Below are positions 13,212-55,980 of a stretch of DNA of 55,980 bases, piece after piece. Position numbers and translations under genes: made by a program. Numbering within the stretch: position 1 is the stretch's first letter; each line of letters opens with the position of its first letter. Under the pieces are notes generated by a model. That model was not told the DNA's origin and did not search any database. It saw nothing but the letters and a program-made list of their open reading frames with translations. Source of the stretch: Candidatus Zambryskibacteria bacterium RIFCSPHIGHO2_02_FULL_43_14. GTDB lineage: Bacteria; Patescibacteriota; Minisyncoccia; Phycocordibacterales; Zambryskibacteraceae. The stretch covers positions 1 to 55,980 of the forward strand of contig MHVR01000023.1 in assembly GCA_001825315.1 (NCBI GenBank), written 5' to 3'.

Positions 13212-13699
13212 GAATCACCAAAATCTGTACCACGATAGTATGTCAGTTCGTAAGGAATCTCTTTTCGCAACTCTGTGCCAATATATGGGGCTTCAGCGTG
13301 GGACAGTTCTTCTAATTGCTTACCGTTGAGATGGCCGTATTTTATGACAATTCTGTCAAGCATTTTCTTCTCTTCCTCATTAAAGACAGAAATATCAGGT
13401 TCGACGATACATTTGTACACTTCAGTTGGATTATATCCTACGCGCTCCTCGATCTGCTCAATACTGAGCATTTTTTTCTTTACCATTTCAGCAGTAATTT
13501 CTTCCAACGCAGAGGGTACGGGACCCATGGGAAGCGCACAATAAATATCGCCAGTTATTAACTTCTGACTTTTTTCATACAAGTCAAAATCCGCAAAATA
13601 GAGTAATTTCGCTAACTTTTTCTTACCGCGCACCTCGCCTTTTAACTTCCGGCACAAATACAGGATGGCATTCTGGTACTGTTTCCGGCGTAGGGACAT
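13208..13699 (-). CDS. Panacea-domain (DUF4065, SocA/GepA-like) antitoxin-type protein
   Basis: 163 aa. KKLAKLLYFADFDLYEKSQKLITGDIYCALPMGPVP matches the DUF4065 core. Confidence 0.75.
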   Translation of the reverse strand: MSLRRKQYQNAILYLCRKLKGEVRGKKKLAKLLYFADFDLYEKSQKLITGDIYCALPMGPVPSALEEITAEMVKKKMLSIEQIEERVGYNPTEVYKCIVEPDISVFNEEEKKMLDRIVIKYGHLNGKQLEELSHAEAPYIGTELRKEIPYELTYYRGTDFGDS

Positions 13700-18246: not shown

Positions 18247-18271
18247 GTAAAACTGGTGTTACAATAGTTGA

Positions 18272-18622
18272 ATGGGGAGATCAAAACCTTTCACTGAAGA
18301 ACGTCCTTGGGGAGGGTTTCGGGAGTTTGCGGAGAACGAGGGAAATACAGTAAAAATTCTTTTTATTAAAAAAGGCGAGGTTTTCAGTTTACAGAAACAT
18401 CACTATAGAAATGAGTTTTGGAGAGTCCTCTCGGGCAACCCAGATATTATAATAGGAGATAAAATGGTTCGTGCTAAAATAGGCGATGAATTTGAAATTC
18501 CACCGGAAATGAAACATCAGATATCTGCGCCTATAAACGAGGTCGAGGTACTGGAGATTTCAAGAGGAAAATTTGATGAAAATGACATCGTTAGAATAGA
18601 AGATAAATATGGCCGCATCTAA
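18272..18622 (+). CDS. cupin-domain protein (type II phosphomannose isomerase-like)
   Basis: 116 aa. ERPWGGF..F....N..VKIL.IKKGE.FSLQKHHYRNEFWRVLSG matches the PMI type II cupin. Confidence 0.75.
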   Translation: MGRSKPFTEERPWGGFREFAENEGNTVKILFIKKGEVFSLQKHHYRNEFWRVLSGNPDIIIGDKMVRAKIGDEFEIPPEMKHQISAPINEVEVLEISRGKFDENDIVRIEDKYGRI

Positions 18623-19805
18623 GAAAAAAACTGTTTCCAAAAAGAAAACCAAGGATTCTTTAAAGAAGGCTATAAAAAGGACGGTTAAAATAAAAAAGAA
18701 GAAAGTCCCCAAAAAGATATATAAAGTTGCGCGCAAATGGAAGAAACCAAGACCTTTGGACTTGCATCGAGCTTTTCATAATCCTGTTATGAGTCCAATT
18801 TCAGGTTCTTACTGGGAATCGGAAGCGGTTTTTAATCCCGGCGCAGTTGTGCACGAAGGACGGGTTCACCTCTTCTACCGCGCTTTGGGTCCTGACGGTA
18901 TTTCTCGTATAGGTTATGCCTCGAGTAAAGATGGTATTCATTTTGACAAGAGGTATCCCCATCCTGTCTATATGCCAGAGACTTCCGCCGAATCTGCTAA
19001 ACATCATTCTCACACTTCTCCGGCAAGACTTCACTACAATAGAACGCTTCATGCTTCTGGAGGTGGGTGGGGTGGGTGTGAAGACCCAAGGGCGGTTAAA
19101 ATTGATAATCAAATATATCTGACGTTTAATATGTTCAACGGATGGTATTCGATAAGAGTCGGATTGACTTCCATTGATGAGAAAGATCTTGAAGACGGTC
19201 GGTGGGATTGGCGACATGTTATCTACTTGTCTCCTCCCAATGAAAGGCATAAAAACTGGGTACTTTTCCCGGAGAAAATAGACGGCAAATATGCCATCCT
19301 TCACAATCTTTATGACACTGACCAGGCGCGGGTACGCATCGAATATTTAGACGATATCAATCTGCGCGAACCGCTTGTCTTGGACAGTCCGGACCCGCAA
19401 CTTTTACCTGACCGGATAATCGGTTGGCACAATCGCACTCGCAGTGTTGGTCCGCCTCCCGTGAAGACTAAATACGGCTGGCTACTTTTCTACCATGCTA
19501 TGGATAAAAACGATCCAGGTCGTTATAAACTCGGGGCATTGCTACTTGATCTAAAAGACCCGAGAAAAGTTCTCTACCGTTCAAATTATCCAATACTCGA
19601 ACCTGATGAATGGTACGAGAACGATTGGAAACCAGGTATCATCTACGCTTCCGGAGCTATAGTTAGAGGTAGCACTCTTCTCATATATTACGGAGGAGGA
19701 GATAAGCACATTGGTGTGGCCTATACCAATCTGCCTGAGTTTGTTCGCAAGCTCATGAAGAATGAACACACTGTTTTTTCAATCAAATCCGTCAAGGTGG
19801 TATAG
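18609..19805 (+). CDS. GH130 family (DUF377) beta-mannoside phosphorylase/glycosidase-like protein with Lys-rich N-terminal extension
   Basis: 398 aa. YWESEAVFNPGAV..GRVHLFYRA, GGCEDPRAVKIDN, GWLLFYHA, LLIYYGGGDK. The first 60 codons are extremely K/R-rich; the alternative start ATG 18789 would remove them. Confidence 0.8.
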   Translation: MAASKKKTVSKKKTKDSLKKAIKRTVKIKKKKVPKKIYKVARKWKKPRPLDLHRAFHNPVMSPISGSYWESEAVFNPGAVVHEGRVHLFYRALGPDGISRIGYASSKDGIHFDKRYPHPVYMPETSAESAKHHSHTSPARLHYNRTLHASGGGWGGCEDPRAVKIDNQIYLTFNMFNGWYSIRVGLTSIDEKDLEDGRWDWRHVIYLSPPNERHKNWVLFPEKIDGKYAILHNLYDTDQARVRIEYLDDINLREPLVLDSPDPQLLPDRIIGWHNRTRSVGPPPVKTKYGWLLFYHAMDKNDPGRYKLGALLLDLKDPRKVLYRSNYPILEPDEWYENDWKPGIIYASGAIVRGSTLLIYYGGGDKHIGVAYTNLPEFVRKLMKNEHTVFSIKSVKVV

Positions 19806-19811
19806 ATACAT

Positions 19812-21737
19812 ATGTTTGTAATCAAACGAACAGAAGATAATCCCATTCTGGTACCTACCCGTGACCATTACTGGGAAGCATCTGCCACTTTCAATATGTC
19901 TCCGGTGAGGCGAGGTCGAGGCATTTATGGCCTATATCGGGCGATATCGAGTAAGGATCCGTTAAGGACTCCTGATCAGATATCTACCATCGGTATAGCT
20001 AAGAGTGCAGACGGTTTACATTTTGAGGACCGCAGGCAATTTATAGAGCCTTTGGAGGAGTGGGAAAAATTTGGCTGTGAGGACCCGCGAATAACTTTTT
20101 TTGAGGGCCGCTATTATATCTTTTACACGGCTTTGTCTCACTTTCCATTCGTTGCGGAAGGTATTAAGGTCGCCGTGGCGATATCAAATGACCTGAAGCG
20201 CGTCAATGAACGGCATCTAGTGACGCCTTTCAATGCCAAAGCCATGACTCTTTTCCCGGAGCGGATAAATGGCAAAGTCACAGTCATTTTCAGCGCCCAT
20301 ACTGACGGTTCCGTGGCTAAGATGGTCATTGCTCAAGCCGATGATATCTCTGAATTTTGGTCTCAAGAGTTTTGGGAAGATTGGCACGAACATATTGATG
20401 ATCATAAATTGGAATTGCGTCGCAATGACTACGACCATGTAGAGGTAGGAGCTGCCCCAATTAAAACCAAGCATGGCTGGCTTCTTATTTATTCGCATAT
20501 TGAGCACTATTTTCCTTCGTCGGAAAATTTGAGGCCCCAATTCGGTGTCGAAGCGCTACTCCTTGACTTAGAAAATCCGTATAAAATTATCGGTCGCACG
20601 AACGGCCCTATGATGGTGCCCGAGGAGCCCTATGAACTTTCTGGCCACGTTTCCAATATCATTTTTCCGTCCGGTACGCTTCTCAACGACAAAACTTTGA
20701 CAATCTACTACGGTGCCTCCGATACCACCATTTGTTCCGCATATATCAACATCGACGACTTAATCTCAAGTATTGATATTAAAACTAAATATCGATGGCG
20801 TTTCAGACGTCTTGAAAATAACCCTATCATTGTGCCTAATCCAAATCACAGGTGGGAATCAAAAGCGACATTTAACCCCGGCGCTATTGATCTCGGAGGT
20901 AAGGTTCATATTCTCTATCGCGCACTTTCGGACGATAACACTTCTACTATCGGTTATGCCACAAGTATTGATGGGATAGCAATAACCGAACGTCTGGATG
21001 AACCAATTTATACTCCACGCGAAGACTTCGAAACTAAGAAAATAGAAGGAGCCAATTCCGGATGTGAGGACCCTCGTCTTACCAAAATCGGGAATAATTT
21101 GTATATGTGCTACACCGCTTTTGATGGCATTGGTCCGCCACGGGTAGCAGTTACCTCTATCAAAGAACAAGATTTCTTATCGCGATATTGGAAGTGGAAG
21201 AAGCCGGAACTCATTACTCCAAAAGGCGTTGATGACAAGGATACCTGTATTCTCCCGGAGAAAATTGGAGGTAAATACATGATACTTCATCGCATTGGGA
21301 CGGATATTTGCGGTGATTTTCTTAGATCGCTAGATTTTAAAACGGAGACAGTTAATAAATGTATTCGAATTTTCGGGCCGAGAGTCGGAATGTGGGATAG
21401 TGAAAAAGTTGGCATTACGGCTTCTCCTATTCGGACCAAACAAGGTTGGGTTCTCCTATATCATGCTGTATCAAAAGGCCACCACACTTACCGCGTCGGA
21501 GCGGTACTCTTGGATCTTAAAGACCCGACAACTGTACTGTCACGTTCAGCCGACCCAATTTTTGAACCGGAGGAATTATATGAGAAAGAGGGAATAGTAA
21601 GAAACGTAGTCTTTCCTTGTGGCATAGTAGTGCGTGATAATCTACTATATATATATTATGGTGGCGCGGATAAAGTTACCGGGGTAGCCACCATGGAGCT
21701 TGATATTCTGGTAGGAGCTCTCGCAAGTATTTTATGA
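19812..21737 (+). CDS. tandem double GH130-domain protein
   Basis: 641 aa. Two full repeats of the GH130 pattern: WEASATFN../FGCEDPRITFF../GWLLIYSH../IYYGASD and WESKATFNPGA../SGCEDPRLTKI../GWVLLYHAV../IYYGGADK. Confidence 0.85.
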   Translation: MFVIKRTEDNPILVPTRDHYWEASATFNMSPVRRGRGIYGLYRAISSKDPLRTPDQISTIGIAKSADGLHFEDRRQFIEPLEEWEKFGCEDPRITFFEGRYYIFYTALSHFPFVAEGIKVAVAISNDLKRVNERHLVTPFNAKAMTLFPERINGKVTVIFSAHTDGSVAKMVIAQADDISEFWSQEFWEDWHEHIDDHKLELRRNDYDHVEVGAAPIKTKHGWLLIYSHIEHYFPSSENLRPQFGVEALLLDLENPYKIIGRTNGPMMVPEEPYELSGHVSNIIFPSGTLLNDKTLTIYYGASDTTICSAYINIDDLISSIDIKTKYRWRFRRLENNPIIVPNPNHRWESKATFNPGAIDLGGKVHILYRALSDDNTSTIGYATSIDGIAITERLDEPIYTPREDFETKKIEGANSGCEDPRLTKIGNNLYMCYTAFDGIGPPRVAVTSIKEQDFLSRYWKWKKPELITPKGVDDKDTCILPEKIGGKYMILHRIGTDICGDFLRSLDFKTETVNKCIRIFGPRVGMWDSEKVGITASPIRTKQGWVLLYHAVSKGHHTYRVGAVLLDLKDPTTVLSRSADPIFEPEELYEKEGIVRNVVFPCGIVVRDNLLYIYYGGADKVTGVATMELDILVGALASIL

Positions 21738-21750
21738 TAATCTTAAAGGT

Positions 21751-22416
21751 ATGATGTTTCCAAATTGGGCGAAGAATATTCTCTTTCTCTTAGTCTATAT
21801 GATCTCGGGATTGGTGCTTGTGATTATTATTGAGGGCCTGCTTTCTGGTACGGAATTGACACCTCTCAATACTGTCATAGAGCGGGTGGTAGTACATATG
21901 CGCACCCCATTTTTGACAACTATTTTAGTAACCGTTACCAGATTGGGCAACCCTTTTATCCTCTCGTCGGCGACGGTCTTTATTGCGGTGTTGCTTATCA
22001 TACGCGGACGTGTTTATGATGCCGCGCTTTTTGTCACCGCGTTGATTATAGCGGTTGTTTCGTTGACGATACTCAAGAACACCTTCCAAATTACACGGCC
22101 GGGTTCCGAGCTTGTCGCTGTTAACGGTTGGAGTTTTCCTTCCGGACACGCGACCGTCGCAACTGCGTTCTTTTTTATGTTGGCCCATACTTTTTTTGGT
22201 AAAATGGGGACATTAAAGGGTAAAATCTCTTTGATTCTCGGTTCAATTTCAGGAGCGGTCCTTATCTGCTTTTCTCGACTTTATCTCGGAGCGCACTGGA
22301 CACTCGATATCCTGGCGGGTATTGCTCTTGGACTTTTGTCCGTAAGTCTTACGGTACTAATGTTTAATGTTTTTATCGGAGAGAGACGTTCGTTGAGGGA
22401 AAGAATAAATTTGTGA
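21751..22416 (+). CDS. PAP2-family lipid phosphatase
   Basis: 221 aa. Polytopic, with motifs KNTFQITRP, SFPSGHA, SRLYLGAHWTLD. Confidence 0.85.
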   Translation: MMFPNWAKNILFLLVYMISGLVLVIIIEGLLSGTELTPLNTVIERVVVHMRTPFLTTILVTVTRLGNPFILSSATVFIAVLLIIRGRVYDAALFVTALIIAVVSLTILKNTFQITRPGSELVAVNGWSFPSGHATVATAFFFMLAHTFFGKMGTLKGKISLILGSISGAVLICFSRLYLGAHWTLDILAGIALGLLSVSLTVLMFNVFIGERRSLRERINL

Positions 22417-25286: not shown

Positions 25287-25772
25287 TTATTTCTCCAGTA
25301 TTAGATAAGAATATTTCAGTCCCTCAAATTCACCGGATTCCTTTGAAATCTTTTTTGTAAATATATTTGAATATTCCGGGAAAAAAGCATCACCGTCTAC
25401 ATCCATCTCTACCTTTGTCACATATAATCTATCTGCCAAAGATAAGGTCTCTTTATAAATCTCTGCTCCGCCAATAATAAAAACTTCTTCTTGGTCAAAC
25501 TCTTGAGCCCTCTTAATCGCTTCAACTGCGGAGTGAACCACTATGCATCCGGGGATTTCTAAATTTATATCTCTGGTGACCACAATATTTGTTCTGCTGG
25601 GAAGTGGTCTGCCTATAGATTGATAAGTTTTTCTACCCATAATTATGGGGTGACCAGTGGTCAATTTTTTGAATCTTTTGAGGTCTTCCGGTAGACGCCA
25701 AGGCAAATTATTAGTTTTACCTATGACCATATTTCTTGAATGTGCCACTATAATGCTAATGTGTGGTAACAT
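25287..25772 (-). CDS. folA: dihydrofolate reductase
   Basis: 161 aa. ISIIVA...N.VIGK.N.LPWRLPEDLKRFKKLT.GHPIIMGRKTY.SIG.PLP.R.NIV. Confidence 0.92.
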   Translation of the reverse strand: MLPHISIIVAHSRNMVIGKTNNLPWRLPEDLKRFKKLTTGHPIIMGRKTYQSIGRPLPSRTNIVVTRDINLEIPGCIVVHSAVEAIKRAQEFDQEEVFIIGGAEIYKETLSLADRLYVTKVEMDVDGDAFFPEYSNIFTKKISKESGEFEGLKYSYLILEK

Positions 25773-25785
25773 AATCCCATCAATT

Positions 25786-26454
25786 ATGTCTCAATACGAA
25801 ATTGAAATCAAAAGTCTCCTAGGTAGCTTCGAAAGAGCTCGTAAATTGAAGGAGAAGATTAAAGAAAAAGGCGGCGAATTTGTAAGAAGCAACAACCAGC
25901 TTAACCACTATTTTATCCTCAACGATGTCAACAAGTTTAAAGAAAAATTTAATTCACATCTCTTTGGAGAAGATAAAGTTAAATTCAATAATATTATAGA
26001 AGAGGGGAGTAACTTTTCAGTTCGCACCAGAGATACGGATGGTAAAGTTCTCCTAGTCATCAAGGCATCCATTGATAACGACACAAGCGCTAACGGCGTA
26101 TCTCGTATAGAGTTTGAGTCCGAAATGAAAATAACATTAAATGAATTAGACAAACTTCTCCTAGATGCCGGTCTTGAGTATCAAGCTAAATGGTCTCGCG
26201 AGAGGGAAGAATATAAGTTAGACGATATCAATGTGTGTCTCGATAAGAACGCGGGCTACGGGTATCTGGCCGAATTTGAAAAAGTGGTTCCGGATAAATT
26301 CGTGACAGAATCAGTCAAGGAAGAGCTCCTAAAAATTATGAAGAGCTTCGGGGTGGAAGAACTGCCGCAGGATAGACTAGAAAGAATGTTTGCTCACTAT
26401 AATAGTAATTGGAGAGATTATTACGGGACAGAAAAAATATTTAACATAGACTAA
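25786..26454 (+). CDS. CYTH-domain protein (class IV adenylate cyclase / triphosphatase-like)
   Basis: Track ORF 25657-26454 trimmed to ATG 25786; the extension overlaps folA antisense. YEIEIK (ExExK) at the N-terminus, later SVRTR, IEFE and LAEFEK acidic strands. Confidence 0.7.
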   Translation: MSQYEIEIKSLLGSFERARKLKEKIKEKGGEFVRSNNQLNHYFILNDVNKFKEKFNSHLFGEDKVKFNNIIEEGSNFSVRTRDTDGKVLLVIKASIDNDTSANGVSRIEFESEMKITLNELDKLLLDAGLEYQAKWSREREEYKLDDINVCLDKNAGYGYLAEFEKVVPDKFVTESVKEELLKIMKSFGVEELPQDRLERMFAHYNSNWRDYYGTEKIFNID

Positions 26455-26455
26455 T

Positions 26456-27031
26456 ATGTTTTTATCTGATATTGATATAAAAAAAGCGGTTAAAGCTGGG
26501 GACATAATTATCTCCGACTTTGATCAAAAACGACTTCAACCGGCAAGCTATGATATTCTATTGGGGAATAAGTTCATGTTAACGGAATCTCACGGTATAG
26601 ATGCCATAGATCCGGTTAAGAAAAAATTTGCAAAGACCAAAGACATAATATTGAAGAAAGGCGAGACCTTCGTTTTGCATCCTGGAGTAAGTATTTTGGG
26701 TATCTCAATTGACTACTTTGGTTCCGAGAAGTACGTGATACAACTGCATGGCAAATCAAGTTTGGCCCGTATTGGGCTTATGGTGCACAATACTGCTGGA
26801 TTGATTAACCCGGGGCACTTCCTATGTATCACCTTTGAACTCTGTAATCTCAATGAGGTTCCCATCATCCTTACCCCCGGGATGCCTGTGGGTCAACTGA
26901 CTTTCTCCAAAATGGTGACTGCGCCAGAGAAAAATTATAAGAAAATCAATAAATATGTGAACGACAAGTGGAAAATTGAGACACCGCCTAAAAATATTTT
27001 ACGTAAAGTTAAGAAAGCCAAGAAAAAATGA
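26456..27031 (+). CDS. dcd: dCTP deaminase
   Basis: 191 aa. LQPASYDILLG, GKSSLARIGL, NPGH.G..T.E. pattern. Confidence 0.88.
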   Translation: MFLSDIDIKKAVKAGDIIISDFDQKRLQPASYDILLGNKFMLTESHGIDAIDPVKKKFAKTKDIILKKGETFVLHPGVSILGISIDYFGSEKYVIQLHGKSSLARIGLMVHNTAGLINPGHFLCITFELCNLNEVPIILTPGMPVGQLTFSKMVTAPEKNYKKINKYVNDKWKIETPPKNILRKVKKAKKK

Positions 27032-27032
27032 C

Positions 27033-27998
27033 ATGAACGATAAAAGTCATCCAGAGTATCAGTATCTAAATCTTCTCCAAGACATTTTAGATCATGGAGT
27101 ATTGAAGAAAGACCACAATACTGGCAATGGGTTAATTAGTGTTTTTGGCAGGCAGTGTCGATACGATCTTTCGAAAGGATTCCCACTGCTTACTACTAAA
27201 AAAATGGCTTGGAATAGTATTCTCACTGAACTGGCATGGTTCATCACTGGGCAAACTAATATCAAGTACCTTGTCGATCGGGGGTGTCCTATCTGGAATG
27301 ATTATCCATATAAAATTTATAAGAAGAAATCAGATGAAGGCAAATTTCCTCAGCTCACACTAGAAAAATTTGTGGAAAAAATAAAAACTGACGGAGAGTT
27401 TGCCAAAGCTCACGGCGAGTTGCCTCGTATTTATGGAGAACAGTGGCGCGCATGGCCGGCAAGTGACGGTAGGAAAATAGACCAGCTGGCGTGGGTAGTG
27501 GATACGCTTAAAAATTTTCCAGAAAGAAAACATGCCGTGATGTCCGTATGGAACCCTCAATTCTTGTATGCAATGGCAAAACCAGGAGAGGCACTTTCTT
27601 TCCCACTGTGTCATATATTGTTGCATTTCAACGTGGCCAACGGAAAGCTTTCTTGTCTCCTATATCAGAGAAGCTGTGACACATTTCTTGGAGTACCATT
27701 CAACATTGCAAGTTATGCGGCCCTCACCATGATCATTGCTAAAATTTGCGGATATGAACCAGGTGAATTTGTCCATACCCTAGGTGATGTTCACATCTAC
27801 GAAGATCATATCGAGCAAGTAAAAGAGCAATTAACTCGAGACCCTAAACCATTCTGTAGATTGATACTTAGTGATGAGGTTAAGGATCTGGATAACTTTG
27901 CACCTGAAATGGTACAGCTCGATGGATATGAATCGCATCCTCCTCTTCGAGCAAAAATGACAGTTGCGGGTGGCTTCGATGAAAAAGATAGAAAATAA
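27033..27998 (+). CDS. thyA: thymidylate synthase (ThyA)
   Basis: Track ORF trimmed to ATG 27033. EYQYLNLLQDIL..G, PLLTTKK, YGEQWR, LPLCHILLHF, YQRSCD.FLGVPFNIASYA. Confidence 0.93.
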   Translation: MNDKSHPEYQYLNLLQDILDHGVLKKDHNTGNGLISVFGRQCRYDLSKGFPLLTTKKMAWNSILTELAWFITGQTNIKYLVDRGCPIWNDYPYKIYKKKSDEGKFPQLTLEKFVEKIKTDGEFAKAHGELPRIYGEQWRAWPASDGRKIDQLAWVVDTLKNFPERKHAVMSVWNPQFLYAMAKPGEALSFPLCHILLHFNVANGKLSCLLYQRSCDTFLGVPFNIASYAALTMIIAKICGYEPGEFVHTLGDVHIYEDHIEQVKEQLTRDPKPFCRLILSDEVKDLDNFAPEMVQLDGYESHPPLRAKMTVAGGFDEKDRK

Positions 27999-29171
27999 AT
28001 GAAAGACAAAGAAATTCAGAAACTCATAGAACAGGAGAAAAAACGCCAGAAAAGCGTTATAAACTTGATTGCGTCTGAAAATTATGTCTCGCAAGATGTA
28101 TTGGAAGCACTTGGTTCGGAATTAACTAATAAATATGCAGAAGGATATGCGGGACATCGTTACTATGGCGGTAATGAAGTTTCTGACAAGATTGAAAGTT
28201 TGTGCAAAACACGCGCCTTAAAACTCTTTAAACTCTCTCCGAAGAAATGGGCGGTAAACGTTCAAGCCTTGTCTGGTTCGCCCGCAAATCTCGCTGTTTA
28301 TCTTGGATTGGTACCGCTTGGTGGAATTATTATGGGCATGTCACTAACAGACGGTGGGCACTTAACGCATGGATATAAAGTATCTGCGACAGGAAAGTTC
28401 TGGAAAGCAGTCCAGTATGGAGTCGATCCCAAAACAGAGAGAATCGATTATAGGGCGGTAAAAAAATTGGCAAAGAAAGAAAAACCGAATATTATCATTG
28501 CCGGTTTTACCGCTTATCCGAGAAATATTGATTTCAAGAAATTCAGGGAAATTGCCGATGCTTGCGGGGCGTACTTAATGGTGGATATGTCACATACTGC
28601 TGGACTTGTCGCCGGAGGTGCGTGTTCATCGCCGTTTTCGTATGCTGATGTGGTGACTACCACTACACATAAGACTTTGCGTGGACCGAGAAGCGCTCTC
28701 ATTTTTTCGAGAATGGATAAGCGAGAGCTAAATAAGAAGATAGATAAAGCGATTTTTCCTGGACTTCAAGGCGGTCCGCATCTCAATCAAATCGCTTCGG
28801 CCGCCGTAGCCTTGGCGGAGGCGGCCAGGCCAGATTTCAAAATATATGCAAAGCAAATTATAAAAAATACAAAAACTCTGGCAGATGAACTTAAAAAGCT
28901 TGGTTGGAGAATTGTGTCTGGGGGAACTGACACTCATCTTGCCCTAGTTGATACTTGGATGAATGGAAAGGGTATCTCTGGCAAAGAAGCGAGTGACAGG
29001 CTAGAAAAAGCTGGAATTATCGTCAATAAAAATACTATACCAAGAGAGACCAGAAGTCCTATGGACCCGTCCGGTATTCGTATTGGCACGGCGGCGGAAA
29101 CTACGCGGGGAAAGAAAGAAAAGGATATGAAGTTAATCGCTCGCAAGATTGATGTTATTCTTAAGAGGTGA
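27999..29171 (+). CDS. glyA: serine hydroxymethyltransferase
   Basis: 390 aa. LIASENYVS, NKYAEGY.G.RYYGG, TTTTHKTLRGPR. Confidence 0.93.
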   Translation: MKDKEIQKLIEQEKKRQKSVINLIASENYVSQDVLEALGSELTNKYAEGYAGHRYYGGNEVSDKIESLCKTRALKLFKLSPKKWAVNVQALSGSPANLAVYLGLVPLGGIIMGMSLTDGGHLTHGYKVSATGKFWKAVQYGVDPKTERIDYRAVKKLAKKEKPNIIIAGFTAYPRNIDFKKFREIADACGAYLMVDMSHTAGLVAGGACSSPFSYADVVTTTTHKTLRGPRSALIFSRMDKRELNKKIDKAIFPGLQGGPHLNQIASAAVALAEAARPDFKIYAKQIIKNTKTLADELKKLGWRIVSGGTDTHLALVDTWMNGKGISGKEASDRLEKAGIIVNKNTIPRETRSPMDPSGIRIGTAAETTRGKKEKDMKLIARKIDVILKR

Positions 29172-30751
29172 AAGAGAATATAGAAAAACTGATAAAAGAA
29201 GCTCTTAAGTCCGTGGATTTGGAGGCGGGGGCTTTTGTGGTGGAGCACCCGACAGATTTAAAGATGGGAGACTACTCTACTAACGTAGGTATTAAGACTG
29301 GCAAAGCCAAAGAAATTATTACCCACTTGGAGGCTGAGCCTCCAAGTGGGGTAGAGAAGATGGAACTCGCGGGGCTGGGATTTATCAATTTTTACCTCTC
29401 GAAAAAATTTTTCAAGGAAAGTATTAATGAGATTATTGAAAAGGGAGAAGATTTTGGCAGAAATGAAAATCTGAAAGGAGAGAAAACTATTATTGAATAC
29501 ACGGATCCAAATCCGTTCAAAGAGTTTCATATTGGTCATCTCATGAGTAATACTATTGGTGAAGCAGTTTCGCGAATTGTGGAATGGAATGGATCAGAGA
29601 CTAGACGAGCATGCTATCAAGGGGATGTGGGTATCCATGTGGCGAAAGCTGTTTGGGGAATTCTAAAAGGCGAGGAAAATCCTTATCCCGCCGGAGCTAA
29701 AGCTTATGAAGAAGATGAAACGGCAAAAAAAGAAATTAAAGAAATAAATAAGAAGATATATGAAAGAAGTGATGAAAAAATAAATGAGATTTATGATTCT
29801 GGTAAAAAAGATAGTTTGAAAAAATTTGACGTTATTTATAACAAACTTGGCACCAAATTTGACCTCATGTTCTTCGAGAGTGAGTCGGGTACTTTCGGGC
29901 AAAGGGTGGTAGAAGAAAATATCGGCAAAGTCTTTGAGAAAAGTGATGGAGCCATAATCTTTCGTGCGGAGAAGTATAATCCTCGTCTGCATACGCGCGT
30001 TTTCATAAATTCTGAAGGATTGCCAACTTATGAGGCAAAAGAGCTTGGCATAGCAAAGATAAAATCAGAGAAATATTTATATGGTCGATCAATTGTTATT
30101 ACGGGCAATGAAGTCAATGAGTATTTCAAAGTGGTATTGGAAGCAATGAGACAAATATTTCCAGAATTGGCTGAAAAAACTACACACATTTCCCACGGCA
30201 TGTTGCGCTTGCCTTCGGGCAAAATGTCTTCGAGGACAGGGGATGTTATCACTGCCGAAGCGTTGATTGAGGAAGTCAAGAAAAAAGTTAAGGGCAATGA
30301 AGCGGTGGCAATTGGGGCTATAAAATACATGATTCTGCGTCAGGCTATAGGTAACGACATTGTATTTGATATAGAGAAATCTGTTTCTACAGAAGGTGAT
30401 TCAGGAGTTTATCTCCAGTACGCGTATGCGCGCACTAGTTCGTTACTAGAGAAAGCAAAGGTGTCAACCTGGCAGGTTGACACCTTGATGACGGGCCCTA
30501 CTCGAGAAATTGAAAGACTTTTGTACCGGTTTCCAGAAGTGGTAGAAAGAGCAGAGAAGGAATATGCGCCCCATTACATCACTACATATCTGACTGAACT
30601 TGCCAGTAGTTTCAACAATTTTTATGCGCATGAACAGATTATCGATATATCTCCAGAATCTCCATATCGTCTGGCTATCGCCAAAGCGTTTAATATAGTA
30701 ATGAAAAACGGTCTAACTATTCTTGGAATACCTGCCCCCGAAAGGATGTGA
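29168..30751 (+). CDS. argS: arginine--tRNA ligase (GTG start overlapping the glyA stop)
   Basis: 527 aa. EYTDPNPFKEFHIGH (HIGH), MSSRTG (KMSKS equivalent), C-terminal anticodon-binding region YAPHYITTYLTELASSFNNFY. Carries the in-frame palindrome at 30458-30486. Confidence 0.92.
   Translation: MKENIEKLIKEALKSVDLEAGAFVVEHPTDLKMGDYSTNVGIKTGKAKEIITHLEAEPPSGVEKMELAGLGFINFYLSKKFFKESINEIIEKGEDFGRNENLKGEKTIIEYTDPNPFKEFHIGHLMSNTIGEAVSRIVEWNGSETRRACYQGDVGIHVAKAVWGILKGEENPYPAGAKAYEEDETAKKEIKEINKKIYERSDEKINEIYDSGKKDSLKKFDVIYNKLGTKFDLMFFESESGTFGQRVVEENIGKVFEKSDGAIIFRAEKYNPRLHTRVFINSEGLPTYEAKELGIAKIKSEKYLYGRSIVITGNEVNEYFKVVLEAMRQIFPELAEKTTHISHGMLRLPSGKMSSRTGDVITAEALIEEVKKKVKGNEAVAIGAIKYMILRQAIGNDIVFDIEKSVSTEGDSGVYLQYAYARTSSLLEKAKVSTWQVDTLMTGPTREIERLLYRFPEVVERAEKEYAPHYITTYLTELASSFNNFYAHEQIIDISPESPYRLAIAKAFNIVMKNGLTILGIPAPERM
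30458..30486. repeat. 29-bp perfect palindrome AAGGTGTCAACCTG-G-CAGGTTGACACCTT inside argS
   Basis: Exact match of both half-sites to 24142-24184. Translated in frame as KVSTWQVDTL. Confidence 0.9.
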
Positions 30752-30784: not shown

Positions 30785-33700
30785 ATGGCAGAGAAGTCTG
30801 AACGAGCTCAAAGAGAGGAGAAAATTCTCCGATTCTGGAAAGATAACAAAATATTCGAGAAAAGTCTCGAAAAAGATTCTCCAAAAGGCGAGTTTGTATT
30901 TTATGACGGGCCGCCGTTTGCCACAGGTCTGCCTCATTACGGACATATCTTACCCGGGACAATAAAAGACGTGGTCCCGCGTTACAAGACAATGCAAGGT
31001 TTCCACGTATCTCGCCGATGGGGTTGGGATTGCCACGGTCTGCCGATTGAGAATTTAGTCGAAAAAGAACTGGGACTAGAAACTAAAAAGGATATTGAGA
31101 AGTTCGGTATCGCAGAATTTAACAGACGAGCACGAGCAAGTGTCTTAAGATTCGAAAAAGAGTGGAAAGAGATAATTCCTCGCACTGGCCGGTGGGTAAA
31201 CATGGACAACGCCTACAAAACTATGGACTCGGGTTATACCGAATCCGTCTGGTGGTCTTTCAAGAATTTGCATGACAAAGGATTAATCTATCAGGGCTTC
31301 AAGTCGATGCATCTATGCCCGCGATGCGAGACCACTCTCTCCAATTTTGAAGTTAATTTAGGCTACAAAGACATTACCGACCTCGCTGTTACCGTTGAAT
31401 TTGAGATTATCGGGCAGCCGAATACTTACTTGTTGGCCTGGACTACCACCCCTTGGACCTTGCCGGGAAATGTCGCTTTGGCAGTAAATCCCGAAATTAA
31501 ATATGCTGTGGTCGAGGGCGAGGTCAAAGGCAATACTTATATTCTTGCGCAGTCGCTAGTTGAAAAAGTGTTTGGAGAAAATCATAAAATCATTCGTACT
31601 TTTTCCGGCCGGGAACTCATTGGGGAAAAATATAAAACTCTCTTTGATTATTACCAGAGCGAAGGCCGGGTTTATGCCGCCGATTTTGTCAAAGCGGAGG
31701 AGGGAACGGGCATTGTCCATATCGCGCCGGCGTTTGGCGAAGATGACTACGAATTATCACTACGCGAAAAACTACCTTTTATTCAGCACGTTGGCACTGA
31801 CGGACGCTTTAAGCCGGAAGTGGCGGACTTTGCCGGAGAATTGGTCAAACCAAAGGATGACCACCAGGCTACTGATATTAAAATCATAAAATATTTAGCA
31901 AGTAAAAATCTACTGTTCGCGAAAGAGAAAATTATCCATAGCTACCCACACTGTTGGCGCTGTGATACTCCTCTGTTGAATTACGCGGCCTATTCTTGGT
32001 TTCTGAAAGTAACTGAAATTAAGGACAAACTGATCAAGAACAACCAAAAGGTGAAGTGGGTACCAGAAGATATTCGTGATGGGCGATTTGGAAAATGGCT
32101 CGAGGGTGTCCATGACTGGGCTATTTCCCGCTCACGTTTTTGGGGTACGCCACTGCCGGTCTGGCAAAATGCGGATGGTTCGAAGAGAATCGTAATCGAT
32201 TCTATTGATACGCTTAAAAAATATATAAAGACTAATGGCAACAAATACTTTGTGATGCGACATGGCGAGGCAATTGATAATGCCAAGCATATACTGGATC
32301 CAAAGGGCGACCCTAATAATCATCTGACCGAAAAAGGCAAGCAAGAGGCAATATTTGCATCGAAAGAGCTCAAGAGAAAAAGTATTGACATTATAATCAC
32401 TTCGCCATTTCTACGTACTAGAGAGACTGCTGAAGTAGTTAGACAAGAACTTGGTTTACCAGAAAGTGTTGTCGTGATTGATGATCGTTTGCATGAATTC
32501 AATGAATCTAATATGGAACTCGTGTCTAAACGCGTTGGAGAGTTTGTCTTTGAGATCGAAAGCCGCTATGTCAAAAAAAACATTCTCATCATTTCTCACG
32601 GTAGTCCTTTATGGGTTCTGCAGAAAATTGCTGCTTGGCAGTCGAGTAGTAATTTTGCAGAACAAGAAATGTTACATACCGCAGAAGTCCAAGAACTATC
32701 TTTTATACCCATGCCGCACAACGATGATTTTGAACTTGATCTGCATAGGCCTCATATCGACGGGATAGTCTTGGAGAAAAGTGGCGAAGAGTATCGCAGA
32801 GTTCCTGAAGTTTTTGATACCTGGTATGATTCCGGTTCAGTGCCATTTGCTTCGCGCGAAATAAAGGATTTCTCGCCAGCCGACTTTATCGCCGAAGGTT
32901 TGGACCAAACTCGCGGCTGGTTCTATACCATGGCGGTCTTGGGAACAGCACTTTTCAATAAATCGCCATATAAACAAGTGATAGTAAATGGGCTCATCTT
33001 GGCTGAGGACGGCAAGAAAATGTCTAAACGTCTAAAAAATTATCCAGAACTCACTTATGTATTGAATAAATACGGTGCTGACGCTCTGCGTTATTATCTA
33101 GTTTCATCATCAGCCGTACGTGCGGAGGATCTAGCTTTCTCAGAAAAAAGTTTAGATGAGATAGTTAAGAAAAATATTTCTCGCCTGGAAAATGTTATAG
33201 GTTTTTATGAACTATATGTGAATGAGATAAAAGTTCTTAAAAGTTCAAGAGGTCATATTTTAGACCACTGGATAGATGCATGTCTGATAAAATTAATCAA
33301 AGAAGTGACAGAAGGTTTGGAAAACTATGAATTAGATCGTGCCAGTCGACCTCTCGCAGATTTTGTGGATGATCTTTCTACATGGTACTTGCGCCGTTCG
33401 CGTACAAGACCAGAAGCTCTACCAAAACTACGAGAAGTTTTACTTCGAGTCGCCGTAATTATGGCGCCATTTATGCCTTTTTTGGCAGAGGATATTTATC
33501 AGCGCTTAAAATCTGAAAAAGATTTCGAAAGCGTACACTTTGAAGTTTGGCCTAGACCAGAGAAAGTTGATACAGAAATCTTGGCCAAGATGAGGGAAGT
33601 AAGGAAAATTGTTTCTCTTGCGCTCGAAGCTCGCTCGAGGGCTAATATCAAAGTTCGTCAGCCTTTAAATGAATTAAGAATAAAGAATAAAAAACTAGGC

Positions 33701-33982
33701 AAAGAATATCTCGATCTGATTCGAGATGAGTTGAATGTCAAAAATATAGTTGTTAATAGTAATTTAGAACAAGAAGTTGAACTTGATATCGAGCTTACTC
33801 CCGAACTTATTGAAGAGGGGAAACTTCGAGACGCGATACGTTCTATCCAAGATACGCGCAAGGAAAGAGGGTTGAAACCGAACGAAAAAATGAAATACGT
33901 TCTGTCAGCCGGTGAAGAAGATTTTTTCAAGAAACATTCTGCCCAAATAAAAAAGGCGACCAATATAGAATTCGAGGACTAA
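30785..33982 (+). CDS. ileS: isoleucine--tRNA ligase with a nested histidine-phosphatase domain
   Basis: 1065 aa. PPFATGLPHYGHIL (HIGH), CP1 editing region, WAISRSRFWGTPLPVW, DTWYDSGS, KMSKRL. About 190 extra residues lie between GTPLPVW and DLHRPHID. Confidence 0.93.
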   Translation: MAEKSERAQREEKILRFWKDNKIFEKSLEKDSPKGEFVFYDGPPFATGLPHYGHILPGTIKDVVPRYKTMQGFHVSRRWGWDCHGLPIENLVEKELGLETKKDIEKFGIAEFNRRARASVLRFEKEWKEIIPRTGRWVNMDNAYKTMDSGYTESVWWSFKNLHDKGLIYQGFKSMHLCPRCETTLSNFEVNLGYKDITDLAVTVEFEIIGQPNTYLLAWTTTPWTLPGNVALAVNPEIKYAVVEGEVKGNTYILAQSLVEKVFGENHKIIRTFSGRELIGEKYKTLFDYYQSEGRVYAADFVKAEEGTGIVHIAPAFGEDDYELSLREKLPFIQHVGTDGRFKPEVADFAGELVKPKDDHQATDIKIIKYLASKNLLFAKEKIIHSYPHCWRCDTPLLNYAAYSWFLKVTEIKDKLIKNNQKVKWVPEDIRDGRFGKWLEGVHDWAISRSRFWGTPLPVWQNADGSKRIVIDSIDTLKKYIKTNGNKYFVMRHGEAIDNAKHILDPKGDPNNHLTEKGKQEAIFASKELKRKSIDIIITSPFLRTRETAEVVRQELGLPESVVVIDDRLHEFNESNMELVSKRVGEFVFEIESRYVKKNILIISHGSPLWVLQKIAAWQSSSNFAEQEMLHTAEVQELSFIPMPHNDDFELDLHRPHIDGIVLEKSGEEYRRVPEVFDTWYDSGSVPFASREIKDFSPADFIAEGLDQTRGWFYTMAVLGTALFNKSPYKQVIVNGLILAEDGKKMSKRLKNYPELTYVLNKYGADALRYYLVSSSAVRAEDLAFSEKSLDEIVKKNISRLENVIGFYELYVNEIKVLKSSRGHILDHWIDACLIKLIKEVTEGLENYELDRASRPLADFVDDLSTWYLRRSRTRPEALPKLREVLLRVAVIMAPFMPFLAEDIYQRLKSEKDFESVHFEVWPRPEKVDTEILAKMREVRKIVSLALEARSRANIKVRQPLNELRIKNKKLGKEYLDLIRDELNVKNIVVNSNLEQEVELDIELTPELIEEGKLRDAIRSIQDTRKERGLKPNEKMKYVLSAGEEDFFKKHSAQIKKATNIEFED
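32165..32737 (+). other. histidine phosphatase (PGAM-superfamily) domain inserted in IleRS
   Basis: KYFVMRHGEA (RHG, nt 32258-32266), ITSPFLRTRETAE, ILIISHGSPLW. All three signature blocks are in the canonical order and in frame with ileS. Confidence 0.75.
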
Positions 33983-33983
33983 A

Positions 33984-34481
33984 GTGTCTTACCACATCTA
34001 CACAACTCGTGGGATTGTGCTTTCAGAAAGAGCGATAGGAGAAGCAGACAGAATTTACAGTATCTTGACTCGTGATCTGGGCAAGCTTCAAGCCCGGGTC
34101 ATTGGAGTAAGAAAGAATACTTCGAAATTGCGGGGCAGTATTGAACCTTTTTCGCTTTCTTCAATCTCTTTTGTGAAGGGTAAAGATTATTGGCGGCTGA
34201 TTTCAGCGCAATTCTTACAAAGTATTCCCGCATCGTCCAACGTTGCCAACCCTTTTTTTCTCATAGAGAAACTTGTTCAAGGGGAAGAACCACACCCGGA
34301 GTTGTTTGATGCCGTAGAGCAATTTGCTCTTTCTCCCAATCCTCACGACGAGATGTTCGAAGTTCACCTAGTTTCGCAAATTCTTTTCCACTTAGGATAT
34401 CTCAAAGAAGTGGATCTTGATTTAGACAAAAAAGATATGATCCAAGCTATAAATGAAGGTATTCAAGCCAGTAATTTATAG
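33984..34481 (+). CDS. recO: DNA repair protein RecO (short form, GTG start)
   Basis: 165 aa. N-terminal OB-fold pattern GIVLSERAIGEADRIYSILTRDLGKL.A...G.RK..SKLRG..EPFS. Shorter than typical RecO. Confidence 0.7.
   Translation: MSYHIYTTRGIVLSERAIGEADRIYSILTRDLGKLQARVIGVRKNTSKLRGSIEPFSLSSISFVKGKDYWRLISAQFLQSIPASSNVANPFFLIEKLVQGEEPHPELFDAVEQFALSPNPHDEMFEVHLVSQILFHLGYLKEVDLDLDKKDMIQAINEGIQASNL

Positions 34482-55314: not shown

Positions 55315-55980
<666 letters not shown>

What the first reader, a model, noticed from the sequence alone, without database searches (positions are those of the whole stretch)
32165..32737. Complete histidine-phosphatase (PGAM-type) domain nested inside the catalytic core of isoleucyl-tRNA synthetase
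Between the conserved IleRS blocks WAISRSRFWGTPLPVW (ending nt 32164) and DLHRPHIDG...VFDTWYDSGS (from nt 32738) lie about 190 residues. Characterised IleRSs have only a few tens of residues there. The insert carries, in canonical order, all three signature blocks of the histidine phosphatase superfamily: FVMRHGEA (catalytic Arg-His-Gly, residues ~492-494), SPFLRTRETA (second Arg) and ILIISHGSPLW (proton-donor-region His). It is in frame with no stops, so the product is a single 1065-aa polypeptide with apparently intact active sites of both enzymes. I am not aware of a described aaRS with an embedded PGAM-like phosphatase. Possible roles: hydrolysis of a phosphorylated by-product or regulator (Ap4A-type nucleotides, phospho-sugars), a moonlighting metabolic activity in a gene-poor genome, or resistance or regulation linked to Ile-AMP analogues.
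Basis: partly seen in the sequence, partly recalled or inferred. Interest (0 to 1): 0.8.

Follow-up and report, generated by a model that had tools for sequence, protein, structure and literature searches.

The report
Phosphatase domain embedded inside isoleucyl-tRNA synthetase
The gene for the enzyme that loads isoleucine onto tRNA carries a complete-looking phosphatase enzyme spliced into its middle; this layout is real, shared by hundreds of ultra-small "Patescibacteria" species, apparently undescribed in the papers searched, and its purpose is unknown.

Summary
ORF 30785-33982 (+) encodes one 1065-aa type-2 IleRS. About 164 residues (aa 481-644, nt 32225-32716) form a branch-1 histidine phosphatase domain (Pfam His_Phos_1, 79 bits against a cut-off of 21.7). 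They replace about 2 residues of a hairpin in the solved IleRS2 structure 8C8V.

It is not an artefact: the identical protein occurs on 12 contigs and in 3 NCBI MAGs (Candidatus Zambryskibacteria).

It is not unique. One narrow peptide pattern found it in 258 GTDB species genomes, and 77 of the 80 loci inspected are in-frame and stop-free. The catalytic residues R492, H493, R544 and H605 are invariant in 115 of 115 insert-bearing homologues, and E571 in 114 of 115.

The same phosphatase clade is inserted at other sites of IleRS and ValRS (1-4 copies) and fused to Sua5/TsaC. It also occurs as a stand-alone ~189-aa gene between argS and ileS, syntenic with this window.

The window's copy lacks a ~40-aa cap segment, and some close relatives lack the whole domain.

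No paper describing this was found, and no NCBIfam model names it. The substrate is unknown.

Verdict: real, widespread, apparently undescribed, with the mechanism unresolved.

The parts
29168..30751 (+). argS (ArgRS, 527 aa), immediately upstream. It is part of the conserved argS-(hp)-ileS neighbourhood.
   Evidence: Pfam finds Arg_tRNA_synt_N, tRNA-synt_1d and DALR_1. ArgRS lies upstream on the same strand in 54 of 80 related loci.
30785..33982 (+). ileS with the embedded phosphatase: one 1065-aa ORF, stop codon included.
   Evidence: The identical protein is public as OHA89798.1, OHA95567.1, OHB02922.1 and UniRef A0A1G2TE51.
30785..32224 (+). IleRS N-terminal part (aa 1-480): first half of the Rossmann fold, the CP1 editing domain (about aa 192-389), and the first arm of the former zinc-knuckle hairpin (aa 461-480).
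   Evidence: Aligns to 8C8V residues 10-477. The editing domain matches 1WK8 at query 192-389.
30935..30946 (+). IleRS HIGH signature (H51-Y-G-H54).
   Evidence: H51, G53 and H54 are invariant in 64 aligned homologues.
32225..32716 (+). Inserted histidine phosphatase (His_Phos_1) domain, aa 481-644.
   Evidence: Pfam scores 79 bits. The boundaries come from the alignment to 8C8V. AF2 gives pLDDT 94.5 and pTM 0.91 for the domain alone. Foldseek's top hits are PhoE, RosC, phosphoserine phosphatase and dPGM.
32258..32266 (+). R492-H493-G494: phosphate-binding Arg and the nucleophilic His.
   Evidence: R and H are kept in 115 of 115 homologues and G in 114 of 115.
32414..32416 (+). R544, the second phosphate-pocket Arg (SPFLR).
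   Evidence: Kept in 115 of 115 homologues.
32495..32497 (+). E571 (RLHE), the likely general acid/base.
   Evidence: Kept in 114 of 115 homologues.
32504..32509 (+). E574|S575: the point where about 40 residues (the 'cap' segment of full-size relatives) are missing.
   Evidence: Alignment gap. Measured's slightly wider boundaries (about 7 residues more than aa 481-644), the insert is 171 aa here against 200-220 aa in 86 of 115 relatives.
32597..32599 (+). H605 (SHG), the second phosphate-pocket His.
   Evidence: Kept in 115 of 115 homologues.
32717..33979 (+). IleRS C-terminal part (aa 645-1065): second arm of the hairpin, DTWYDSGS, KMSKR, the anticodon-binding domain and DUF5915.
   Evidence: Aligns to 8C8V residues 480-909. 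Pfam finds Anticodon_1 and DUF5915.
33017..33031 (+). IleRS KMSKS signature (K745-M-S-K-R749).
   Evidence: K745 and K748 are invariant, and M746 and S747 are kept in at least 90% of sequences.
33984..34481 (+). recO-like gene, the downstream member of the conserved neighbourhood.
   Evidence: Pfam RecO_N. It lies downstream on the same strand in 60 of 80 related loci.

Best explanation
The 164-aa insert is an independently folding branch-1 histidine phosphatase that looks catalytically competent. It sits in a surface hairpin (a former Cys4 zinc knuckle) of a working type-2 IleRS.

It belongs to a Patescibacteria-specific phosphatase clade. In other lineages the gene for this clade is a free-standing ~189-aa ORF between argS and ileS. 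In Paceibacteria the coding sequence lies inside ileS, and in some lineages inside valS or fused to tsaC.

Shown:
- The architecture, the fold, and the conservation of the catalytic residues.
- The spread across species.
- Several insertion sites and copy numbers.
- Gene neighbourhood with synthetase genes.
- Mosaic exchange of the insert between closely related ileS alleles.

Inferred:
- The phosphatase works as a tethered partner of class I synthetases, not as an unrelated passenger.
- The insertion point and copy number vary, and free-standing orthologues exist. It therefore probably acts on a diffusible phosphorylated compound and not through a fixed channel to the synthetic site.
- The most economical candidate is a product or by-product common to IleRS, ValRS and TsaC. 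All three convert ATP to AMP plus pyrophosphate through an adenylate intermediate. The candidate is therefore pyrophosphate or a nucleotide phosphate, whose removal would pull the reaction forward.
- The substrate is a guess.
- The window's own copy has lost the cap, so its active site should be more open. Its specificity may differ, or it may be decaying.
For: Domain identity and fold:
-.

Catalysis under selection:
- R492, H493, R544 and H605 are kept in 115 of 115 homologues and E571 in 114 of 115. Overall insert identity to the window averages only 43%, against 65% for the host.
- R, H, R and H are invariant, and the general-acid Glu is kept in nearly all copies, at other sites, in ValRS, in the TsaC fusion and in free-standing proteins.

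Host intact:
- ileS scores 872 bits, and the HIGH, KMSKS and editing motifs are invariant.
- The full-length AF2 model (pLDDT 84.6) matches IleRS2 8C8V.

Spread:
- 258 GTDB species genomes; 77 of 80 inspected loci are in frame.

Recurrent coupling:
- There are at least 4 IleRS sites and 2 ValRS sites, with up to 4 copies, plus a Sua5/TsaC fusion.
- Free-standing orthologues sit in argS-hp-ileS, argS-x-hp-ileS, argS-hp-x-ileS, hp-ileS and argS-hp arrangements, and next to a class Ic synthetase gene. Six of the 7 informative look-ups show this.
- The argS and recO flanks are syntenic with the window.

Chemical plausibility:
- Histidine phosphatase superfamily members can cleave phosphoanhydrides, but the precedents found are in branch 2 only (PMC13573052, PMC7926622).
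Against: - No activity or substrate has been measured.
- No branch-1 precedent for pyrophosphate hydrolysis was found.
- I could not test whether these genomes lack an ordinary pyrophosphatase. None is encoded in this 56-kb window, but that is only a fraction of a genome.
- The other synthetases in the window (ArgRS, MetRS, one class II enzyme) have no insert, although they make the same products.
- Five close relatives lack the domain, so IleRS does not need it.
- Gene neighbourhood among housekeeping genes can persist without a functional link.
- One free-standing, weaker relative (P0071) is not near any synthetase gene.
Confidence: 0.5

Rival explanations
1. tRNA 3'-end healing. The phosphatase removes a 3'-phosphate or pyrophosphate from the CCA end of a tRNA bound to the synthetase and so restores chargeability. 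It would use the same mobile acceptor end that IleRS and ValRS already shuttle to their editing site.
For: The hosts are mainly tRNA-binding class I synthetases with a translocating CCA end, and another synthetase gene (tRNA-synt_1b) lies next to a tandem copy. The window's copy lacks the cap, which should leave the active site open to bulky substrates. From my own knowledge, not tested here: some toxic RelA-SpoT-type enzymes pyrophosphorylate tRNA CCA ends and block aminoacylation.
Against: The ancestral and commonest form has the cap typical of small-molecule phosphatases, and Foldseek's top hits are small-molecule enzymes. The TsaC/Sua5 YrdC domain is not known to bind tRNA (my own knowledge; fusion seen). 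The variable insertion sites and free-standing forms argue against a fixed geometry.
Confidence: 0.15
2. Unrelated housekeeping phosphatase or mutase (for example phosphoglycerate mutase or phosphoserine phosphatase) that merely rides inside an essential, constitutively expressed gene. There is no functional link to aminoacylation.
For: The best named NCBIfam matches are archaeal-type dPGM, CobC and PspA. These genomes are small and have dense housekeeping gene clusters. The domain has been lost in some lineages.
Against: All those named families score far below their cut-offs: 102 against 225, 99 against 163, and 89 against 350. Repeated independent insertions are confined to IleRS, ValRS and TsaC among the best 150 representatives. 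Tandem amplification to 4 copies and neighbourhood with ileS in several lineages are hard to explain by chance.
Confidence: 0.2
3. Protein phosphatase acting on the synthetase itself. It would reverse inhibitory phosphorylation by toxin-type kinases, serving as a built-in antidote.
For: The hosts would themselves be the substrates, which would explain why the insertion site does not matter. From my own knowledge, some superfamily members are protein phosphatases (SixA, PGAM5, Sts), and HipA/HipT-type kinases target GltX and TrpS. The window copy is capless.
Against: The SixA model scores below its cut-off (42.8 against 74.5), and SixA is not among Foldseek's top 50 hits. IleRS and ValRS are not known kinase targets. 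PADLOC defence models give no hit.
Confidence: 0.08
4. In this particular lineage the domain is a decaying or purely structural passenger. It was once active and is now tolerated because it sits on a surface hairpin.
For: The cap segment is deleted here. The insert evolves faster than the host (43% against 65% identity). Nearest relatives have lost the domain entirely, and the insert is swapped between alleles.
Against: All five catalytic residues are intact here and in all 24 'short' forms. The AF2 model of the reduced domain is very confident. The region has no frameshift or stop.
Confidence: 0.07
5. Assembly or gene-calling artefact: a chimeric contig or a missed frameshift.
For: Some homologues appear as fragments on long contigs.
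Against: Those contigs are frameshift-ridden assemblies in which EF-Tu is also broken. The window protein is identical on 12 contigs and in 3 MAGs. 77 of 80 species genomes have the same in-frame layout. The insert's GC content (39.6%) is close to the host's (42.4%), and there are no flanking repeats.
Confidence: 0.01

Closest known systems
Type-2 (eukaryote-like, mupirocin-resistant type) IleRS, e.g. Priestia megaterium IleRS2 (PDB 8C8V) and Thermus thermophilus IleRS (1ILE)
   Same: The host is collinear over aa 7-480 and 645-1045 (E 1e-210). It has the same HIGH and KMSKS motifs, CP1 editing domain, anticodon-binding domain and C-terminal domain. The full-length model gives TM 0.72-0.75 to 8C8V.
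   Different: 164 extra residues sit where 8C8V has about 2, inside the Cys4 zinc knuckle. The window protein has lost all four cysteines (PVWQNADGS / LEKSGEEY), as have 94 of 120 homologues. It scores far below the MupA/MupB model cut-offs (694 against 1900).
Broad-specificity and small-molecule branch-1 histidine phosphatases: PhoE (1H2E), Rv2419c GpgP (4QIH), RosC (8S6Q), Hydrogenobacter phosphoserine phosphatase (4IJ6), archaeal-type dPGM, CobC
   Same: The alpha/beta fold (TM about 0.7, probability 1.0) and the RHG...R...E...H catalytic set.
   Different: Identity is only 17-23%. No NCBIfam equivalog cut-off is reached by the insert or by free-standing relatives. The window's copy lacks the cap segment. 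It is embedded in another enzyme and is not free-standing.
NCBIfam NF040702 'isoleucine--tRNA ligase, N-acetyltransferase domain-containing' (ileS_w_GNAT)
   Same: It is a precedent showing that bacterial IleRS can carry an extra enzyme domain, common enough for NCBI to have a dedicated model (listed).
   Different: The partner domain is different (GNAT, not a histidine phosphatase). The window protein scores 324 bits against a cut-off of 1999, so it is not a member. No equivalent model exists for the phosphatase-bearing form.
Bifunctional RNase H / acid phosphatase (NCBIfam PRK07238; Mycobacterium tuberculosis Rv2228c type)
   Same: A branch-1 histidine phosphatase domain joined to an enzyme of nucleic-acid metabolism. 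The insert matches its phosphatase half (54.8 bits).
   Different: That protein is an end-to-end fusion, not an insertion. The score is far below its cut-off (326), and the partner enzyme is different.
Lineage-specific insertion modules of class Ia synthetases (CP1 editing domain, LeuRS leucine-specific domain, zinc knuckles)
   Same: A discrete module is inserted into a loop of the Rossmann-fold body without breaking it. Synthetases are known to be frequent hosts of domain insertions (PMC13114784).
   Different: Known inserts serve tRNA or amino-acid handling. This one is a member of an unrelated hydrolase superfamily with its own active site.

Membership tests
Histidine phosphatase superfamily, branch 1 (Pfam PF00300) | Profile match above the curated cut-off | tested here: met
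   79 bits against 21.7 for the insert alone.
Histidine phosphatase superfamily, branch 1 (Pfam PF00300) | N-terminal RHG motif with the nucleophilic His | tested here: met
   R492-H493-G494; R and H are kept in 115 of 115 homologues.
Histidine phosphatase superfamily, branch 1 (Pfam PF00300) | Second Arg and second His completing the phosphate pocket, plus an acidic proton donor | tested here: met
   R544 and H605 are kept in 115 of 115 homologues, and E571 in 114 of 115.
Histidine phosphatase superfamily, branch 1 (Pfam PF00300) | Mixed alpha/beta fold of the superfamily | tested here: met
   The AF2 model has pLDDT 94.5. Foldseek gives probability 1.0 and TM about 0.7 to PhoE, RosC, PSP and dPGM.
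Histidine phosphatase superfamily, branch 1 (Pfam PF00300) | Phosphoryl-transfer activity through a phospho-histidine intermediate | not testable with these tools
   Needs an enzyme assay.
Cofactor-dependent phosphoglycerate mutase (dPGM / 'PGAM-type' proper) | Equivalog-level profile score | tested here: not met
   dPGM_arch scores 62.6 bits (insert) and 102 bits (free-standing relative) against a cut-off of 225. Bacterial dPGM models score 19-34 bits against cut-offs above 300.
Cofactor-dependent phosphoglycerate mutase (dPGM / 'PGAM-type' proper) | Cap subdomain that encloses the substrate | tested here: not met
   About 40 residues after E574 are missing in the window's copy.
SixA phosphohistidine phosphatase | TIGR00249 score above its cut-off | tested here: not met
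   42.8 bits against 74.5. SixA is not among Foldseek's top 50 hits.
CobC alpha-ribazole phosphatase | TIGR03162 score above its cut-off | tested here: not met
   44 bits (insert) and 99 bits (free-standing P0273) against 162.9.
Isoleucyl-tRNA synthetase (TIGR00392), type 2 | Equivalog profile score | tested here: met
   872 bits against 621.
Isoleucyl-tRNA synthetase (TIGR00392), type 2 | HIGH and KMSKS signatures and CP1 editing motifs present | tested here: met
   HYGH at aa 51-54, KMSKR at aa 745-749, TTPWTLPGN and GTG.VH are invariant or nearly so in 64 sequences.
Isoleucyl-tRNA synthetase (TIGR00392), type 2 | Closest to IleRS2/eukaryote-like structures and not to type 1 | tested here: met
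   8C8V, yeast and T. thermophilus IleRS score E 1e-197 to 1e-210. Type-1 enzymes (1FFY, 8C9E) score about 1e-87.
Isoleucyl-tRNA synthetase (TIGR00392), type 2 | Aminoacylation of tRNA-Ile | not testable with these tools
   Needs an assay. No second ileS is present in the window, but the rest of the genome was not seen.
ileS_w_GNAT (NF040702) | Model score above its cut-off | tested here: not met
   324 bits against 1999. Pfam finds no acetyltransferase domain.

The most novel reading that the evidence does not exclude
In Patescibacteria a dedicated histidine phosphatase is a working partner of class I aminoacyl-tRNA synthetases and of TsaC. It would carry out a step that other bacteria either do not need or perform with a different enzyme. 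Examples are local removal of pyrophosphate or a nucleotide phosphate to drive adenylate chemistry, or removal of blocking phosphates from tRNA 3' ends. If so, the many fusions, insertions and operon links are a 'Rosetta stone' for an unrecognised component of the aminoacylation machinery.
Probability: 0.25. Interest if true: 0.85.

Novelty: new variant of a known kind. Interest (0 to 1): 0.62.

Why it matters
Aminoacyl-tRNA synthetases are among the most conserved and best-studied enzymes, and their extra domains usually point to added functions. Here a second enzyme with a fully conserved active site has been built into IleRS across a whole class of ultra-small bacteria.

The same enzyme has been joined to synthetases several more times: at other IleRS sites, in ValRS with up to four copies, fused to TsaC, and as a gene next to ileS. 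Such repeated joining is the classic signature of a functional partnership.

If the partnership is real, it would reveal a phosphate-removing step linked to tRNA charging in organisms with minimal metabolism. It would also give a function to a large unnamed family of Patescibacteria 'PhoE-like' proteins.

Practically, the architecture deserves its own annotation model. At present it is labelled 'hypothetical protein' or 'class I tRNA ligase family protein', and fragments are mislabelled as free phosphatases.

Tried and rejected
- **SixA-like minimal phosphohistidine phosphatase.** The short His-to-His spacing suggested it. I rejected it as a membership claim: TIGR00249 scores below its cut-off, and Foldseek's top hits are PhoE, RosC, PSP and dPGM.
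- **Naturally split IleRS genes.** Short hits on long contigs suggested this. The two contigs examined are frameshift-ridden assemblies, and EF-Tu is also broken in L002.
- **First genome scan.** The scan with the 42-sequence alignment failed for lack of a conserved 7-10-residue stretch. I repeated it with 8 closer sequences.
- **Recent foreign insertion or mobile element.** There is no composition break and no flanking direct repeats. Pfam finds no intein or transposase domain in the insert.
- **Anti-phage defence component.** PADLOC gives no significant match.
- **More host proteins.** The third homologue search used a profile of non-IleRS copies. It returned only free-standing ~189-aa proteins among the best 120, so it added no new hosts.
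- **Literature.** Eight searches found no paper on a synthetase with a histidine phosphatase. They also found nothing on whether Paceibacteria lack inorganic pyrophosphatase.
- **Spatial relation of the two active sites.** The structure tool returns no coordinates, so I could not measure the distance between the phosphatase pocket and the synthetic or editing sites.
Full report
**1. Is it there?**

Yes. The only long ORF over the finding is 30785-33982 (+), 1065 aa with an ATG start.
- WAISRSRFWGTPLPVW is aa 445-460 and ends at nt 32164.
- DLHRPHIDG begins at aa 652, nt 32738.
- RHG is aa 492-494, SPFLRTRETA starts at aa 540, and ILIISHGSP starts at aa 600.

Pfam splits tRNA-synt_1 into two stretches and places His_Phos_1 between them. 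The 191-aa stretch alone scores 79 bits (E 4.9e-22, cut-off 21.7). NCBIfam calls the whole protein ileS, with TIGR00392 at 872 bits against a cut-off of 621.

Against solved structures the best match is the type-2 IleRS of Priestia megaterium (8C8V, E 1e-210). Query 7-480 aligns with chain 10-477 and query 645-1045 with chain 480-909. So aa 481-644 (nt 32225-32716) stand where the solved enzyme has about two residues.

**2. Is it an artefact?**

No.
- The identical 1065-aa sequence is on record from 12 contigs (longest 110 kb). It has three NCBI accessions from Candidatus Zambryskibacteria MAGs, named 'hypothetical protein', and a UniRef entry named 'Isoleucine--tRNA ligase'.
- The insert's base composition is close to the host's (GC 39.6% against 42.4%).
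- No repeats flank the insert.
- Fragmentary homologues on long contigs first suggested split genes. The two contigs I read are frameshift-ridden assemblies, and EF-Tu is also in pieces in L002.

**3. Anatomy of the insert**

AlphaFold2 on aa 478-651 with 42 aligned homologues gives a very confident model (pLDDT 94.5, pTM 0.91). In the full-length model (pLDDT 84.6, pTM 0.75) the insert keeps the same secondary structure, with pLDDT mostly 85-95. The host superposes on IleRS2 and yeast IleRS with TM 0.72-0.76.

Foldseek places the domain among ordinary branch-1 histidine phosphatases at TM about 0.7 and 17-23% identity. The matches include PhoE, Rv2419c, RosC, the Hydrogenobacter phosphoserine phosphatase and dPGMs.

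No named subfamily model is reached. For the insert, archaeal dPGM scores 62.6 against a cut-off of 225, CobC 44 against 163, and SixA 42.8 against 74.5. Full-size free-standing relatives also stay below every cut-off. 'PGAM-type' is therefore right only at the superfamily level.

The catalytic set is R492, H493, R544, E571 and H605. H605 is the second pocket histidine, and E571 (RLHE) is the likely proton donor.

The host hairpin is the Cys4 zinc knuckle of IleRS2 (VWECEGC...TCPVCSG in 8C8V). The window protein has lost all four cysteines, as have 94 of 120 homologues.

**4. Spread and conservation**

Of the best 120 homologue clusters (119 of them full-length, compared together with the window's own protein), 115 of 120 sequences carry the insert. 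Their overall identity to the window goes down to 53%.
- R492, H493, R544 and H605 are invariant in 115 of 115, and E571 in 114 of 115.
- The insert as a whole is much less conserved than the host. Mean identity to the window is 43% against 65%.
- That pattern is what selection on catalysis would produce.

A scan of one genome per GTDB species, using a single narrow peptide pattern ([SN][GI]NKYFVM), found 258 genomes. The 80 best loci carry a range of record names: Zambryski-, Nomura-, Adler-, Kaiser-, Vogel-, Campbell- and Wolfebacteria, RAAC4_OD1, Paceibacterota and Minisyncoccia. Many are submitter-labelled 'uncultured Saccharibacteria', which I did not verify. In 77 of the 80 loci the N-terminal IleRS part, the phosphatase and the C-terminal IleRS part lie in one frame without stops.

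A profile search of 1.84 billion representative proteins gave 575 hits at E <= 1e-30.

**5. The window's copy is a reduced variant**

With one search's slightly wider boundaries (about 7 residues more than aa 481-644), most relatives have a 200-220-aa insert. The window and 23 others have 140-175 aa, because about 40 residues after E574 are missing. In PhoE-like enzymes this segment forms the cap.

Five close relatives (72-79% host identity) lack the domain precisely between '...LKKYSKT' and 'ELDLHRP'. They nest among the short forms.

The gene is mosaic. The window and P0085 are 94% identical over aa 645-850 and 84-85% over the N-terminal part, but only 48% identical in the insert. P0085's insert is full size and is closest to those of more distant hosts. 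I read this as exchange of the insert region between ileS alleles by recombination. Such exchange could also spread short or insert-less alleles.

**6. The wider pattern**

This changes the interpretation. The same phosphatase clade appears in several other contexts.

(a) Other positions in IleRS:
- between DLH..VD and R.PEV.D.WFESG (P0255);
- after DCWFESGSMPYA (P0235);
- at the start of the anticodon-binding domain (P0235, P0259).

Two domains per protein can be tandem or at separate sites. The P0235 cluster has six members on contigs up to 1.06 Mb.

(b) ValRS, at two sites. One is homologous to the window's site, directly after WCISRQIWWGH.IPVWY. P0203 carries up to four copies.

(c) A C-terminal fusion to a Sua5/TsaC YrdC domain (P0039).

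(d) A large family of free-standing ~189-aa Patescibacteria proteins, which filled the whole best-120 list.

In every copy, R, H, R and H are invariant. The general-acid Glu is kept in nearly all; one ValRS copy may lack it.

I looked up ten related proteins. Seven gave informative context, and six of those sit with synthetase genes:
- argS-hp-ileS with 1-4-nt gaps (L090/L091);
- argS-x-hp-ileS (L095/L096);
- argS-hp-x-ileS (L097);
- hp-ileS (L084/L085);
- argS-hp-lpxC (L088);
- a tandem copy upstream of a tRNA-synt_1b gene (L092/L093).

In every one of these arrangements that includes ileS, it carries no insert.

The flanks match the window, which reads argS 29168-30751, ileS 30785-33982, recO-like 33984-34481, then a DUF11/CLIPPER protein. 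ArgRS lies upstream in 54 of the 80 species loci, and RecO downstream in 60.

The simplest history is that a gene lying between argS and ileS was relocated into ileS, with further independent insertions elsewhere.

**7. What it does**

No tool here can name the substrate.

Firm points:
- The domain is independently folded, and its catalytic residues have been kept intact under selection.
- The host IleRS has all its functional motifs.
- The physical or genomic link to class I synthetases has arisen repeatedly.

Inferences:
- The insertion point and copy number vary, and free-standing forms exist. The domain therefore probably does not need a fixed geometry relative to the synthetic site, and acts on something diffusible or flexible.
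- IleRS, ValRS and TsaC share the conversion of ATP to AMP plus pyrophosphate through an adenylate. My leading guess is clearance of pyrophosphate or a nucleotide phosphate.
- Branch-2 relatives do cleave phosphoanhydrides, but I found no branch-1 precedent.

Counter-evidence and limits:
- The window encodes no pyrophosphatase, but it is only 56 kb.
- ArgRS, MetRS and a class II synthetase in the same window carry no insert.
- Some relatives have lost the domain.

Rival explanations are healing of phosphate-blocked tRNA 3' ends, dephosphorylation of the synthetase itself, an unrelated metabolic phosphatase or mutase riding in an essential gene, and, for this reduced copy, decay.

**8. Comparison with what is known, and novelty**

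The host is an ordinary type-2 IleRS, and the guest is an ordinary-looking branch-1 histidine phosphatase of no named subfamily. The combination is what is new.

NCBIfam has a dedicated model for an IleRS with an acetyltransferase domain, but none for this form. Public names are generic. Eight full-text searches found no description. A 2026 survey of domain insertions names synthetases as frequent hosts but does not mention this pair.

The library does not cover subscription journals, so 'undescribed' is provisional.

I rate it a new variant of a known kind, namely a synthetase with an inserted accessory module. Interest is 0.62. It is real, widespread and surprising to a synthetase specialist, but the mechanism is unresolved.

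Noticed in passing
window 30785-33982 compared with P0085, P0084, P0100, P0106: ileS is mosaic. The window is 94% identical to P0085 over aa 645-850 and 84-85% over the N-terminal part, but only 48% in the insert. P0085's insert is full size and nearest to those of more distant hosts. This suggests cassette-like exchange of the insert region by recombination between ileS alleles.
   Followed up: partly
window 32165-32224 and 32717-32810: The Cys4 zinc knuckle of type-2 IleRS has lost all four cysteines here (PVWQNADGS / LEKSGEEY). 24 of 120 homologues keep them.
   Followed up: partly
P0318, P0203 (ValRS); P0039 / L087:977-2140 (Sua5/TsaC fusion): ValRS proteins carry 2 to 4 copies of the same phosphatase clade at two sites. 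A YrdC-domain protein has the phosphatase in place of a SUA5 C-terminal domain.
   Followed up: partly
window 12843-13699 (-): A SocA/Panacea-domain antitoxin gene (13208-13699) overlaps by 4 nt a 122-aa ORF with no Pfam match (12843-13211). This is a candidate toxin-antitoxin pair.
   Followed up: no
window 8662-9726 (-): A Fic/DOC-family protein with a C-terminal ArsR-type HTH.
   Followed up: no
window 55310-55980 (+): The 5' end of a 23S rRNA gene runs off the window. No 16S rRNA gene lies in the 55 kb upstream, so the rRNA genes appear unlinked.
   Followed up: no
window 17479-22416 (+): A cluster of a HAD/phosphomannomutase-like hydrolase, two GH130 mannoside phosphorylases (398 and 641 aa) and a PAP2 phosphatase.
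   Followed up: no
window 25287-29171: A thymidylate/folate cluster: DHFR (- strand), a CYTH-domain protein, dCTP deaminase-like, thymidylate synthase and SHMT, directly upstream of argS. The listed thyA ORF (TTG start at 26976) overlaps the dCTP deaminase gene by 56 nt, so its true start is probably later.
   Followed up: no
window 52415-53122 (+): An IS200-like Y1 transposase domain protein.
   Followed up: no
L001:937-3022: In a related (frameshifted) contig, an IS605 OrfB-like gene and a cas1 gene lie between argS and ileS.
   Followed up: no
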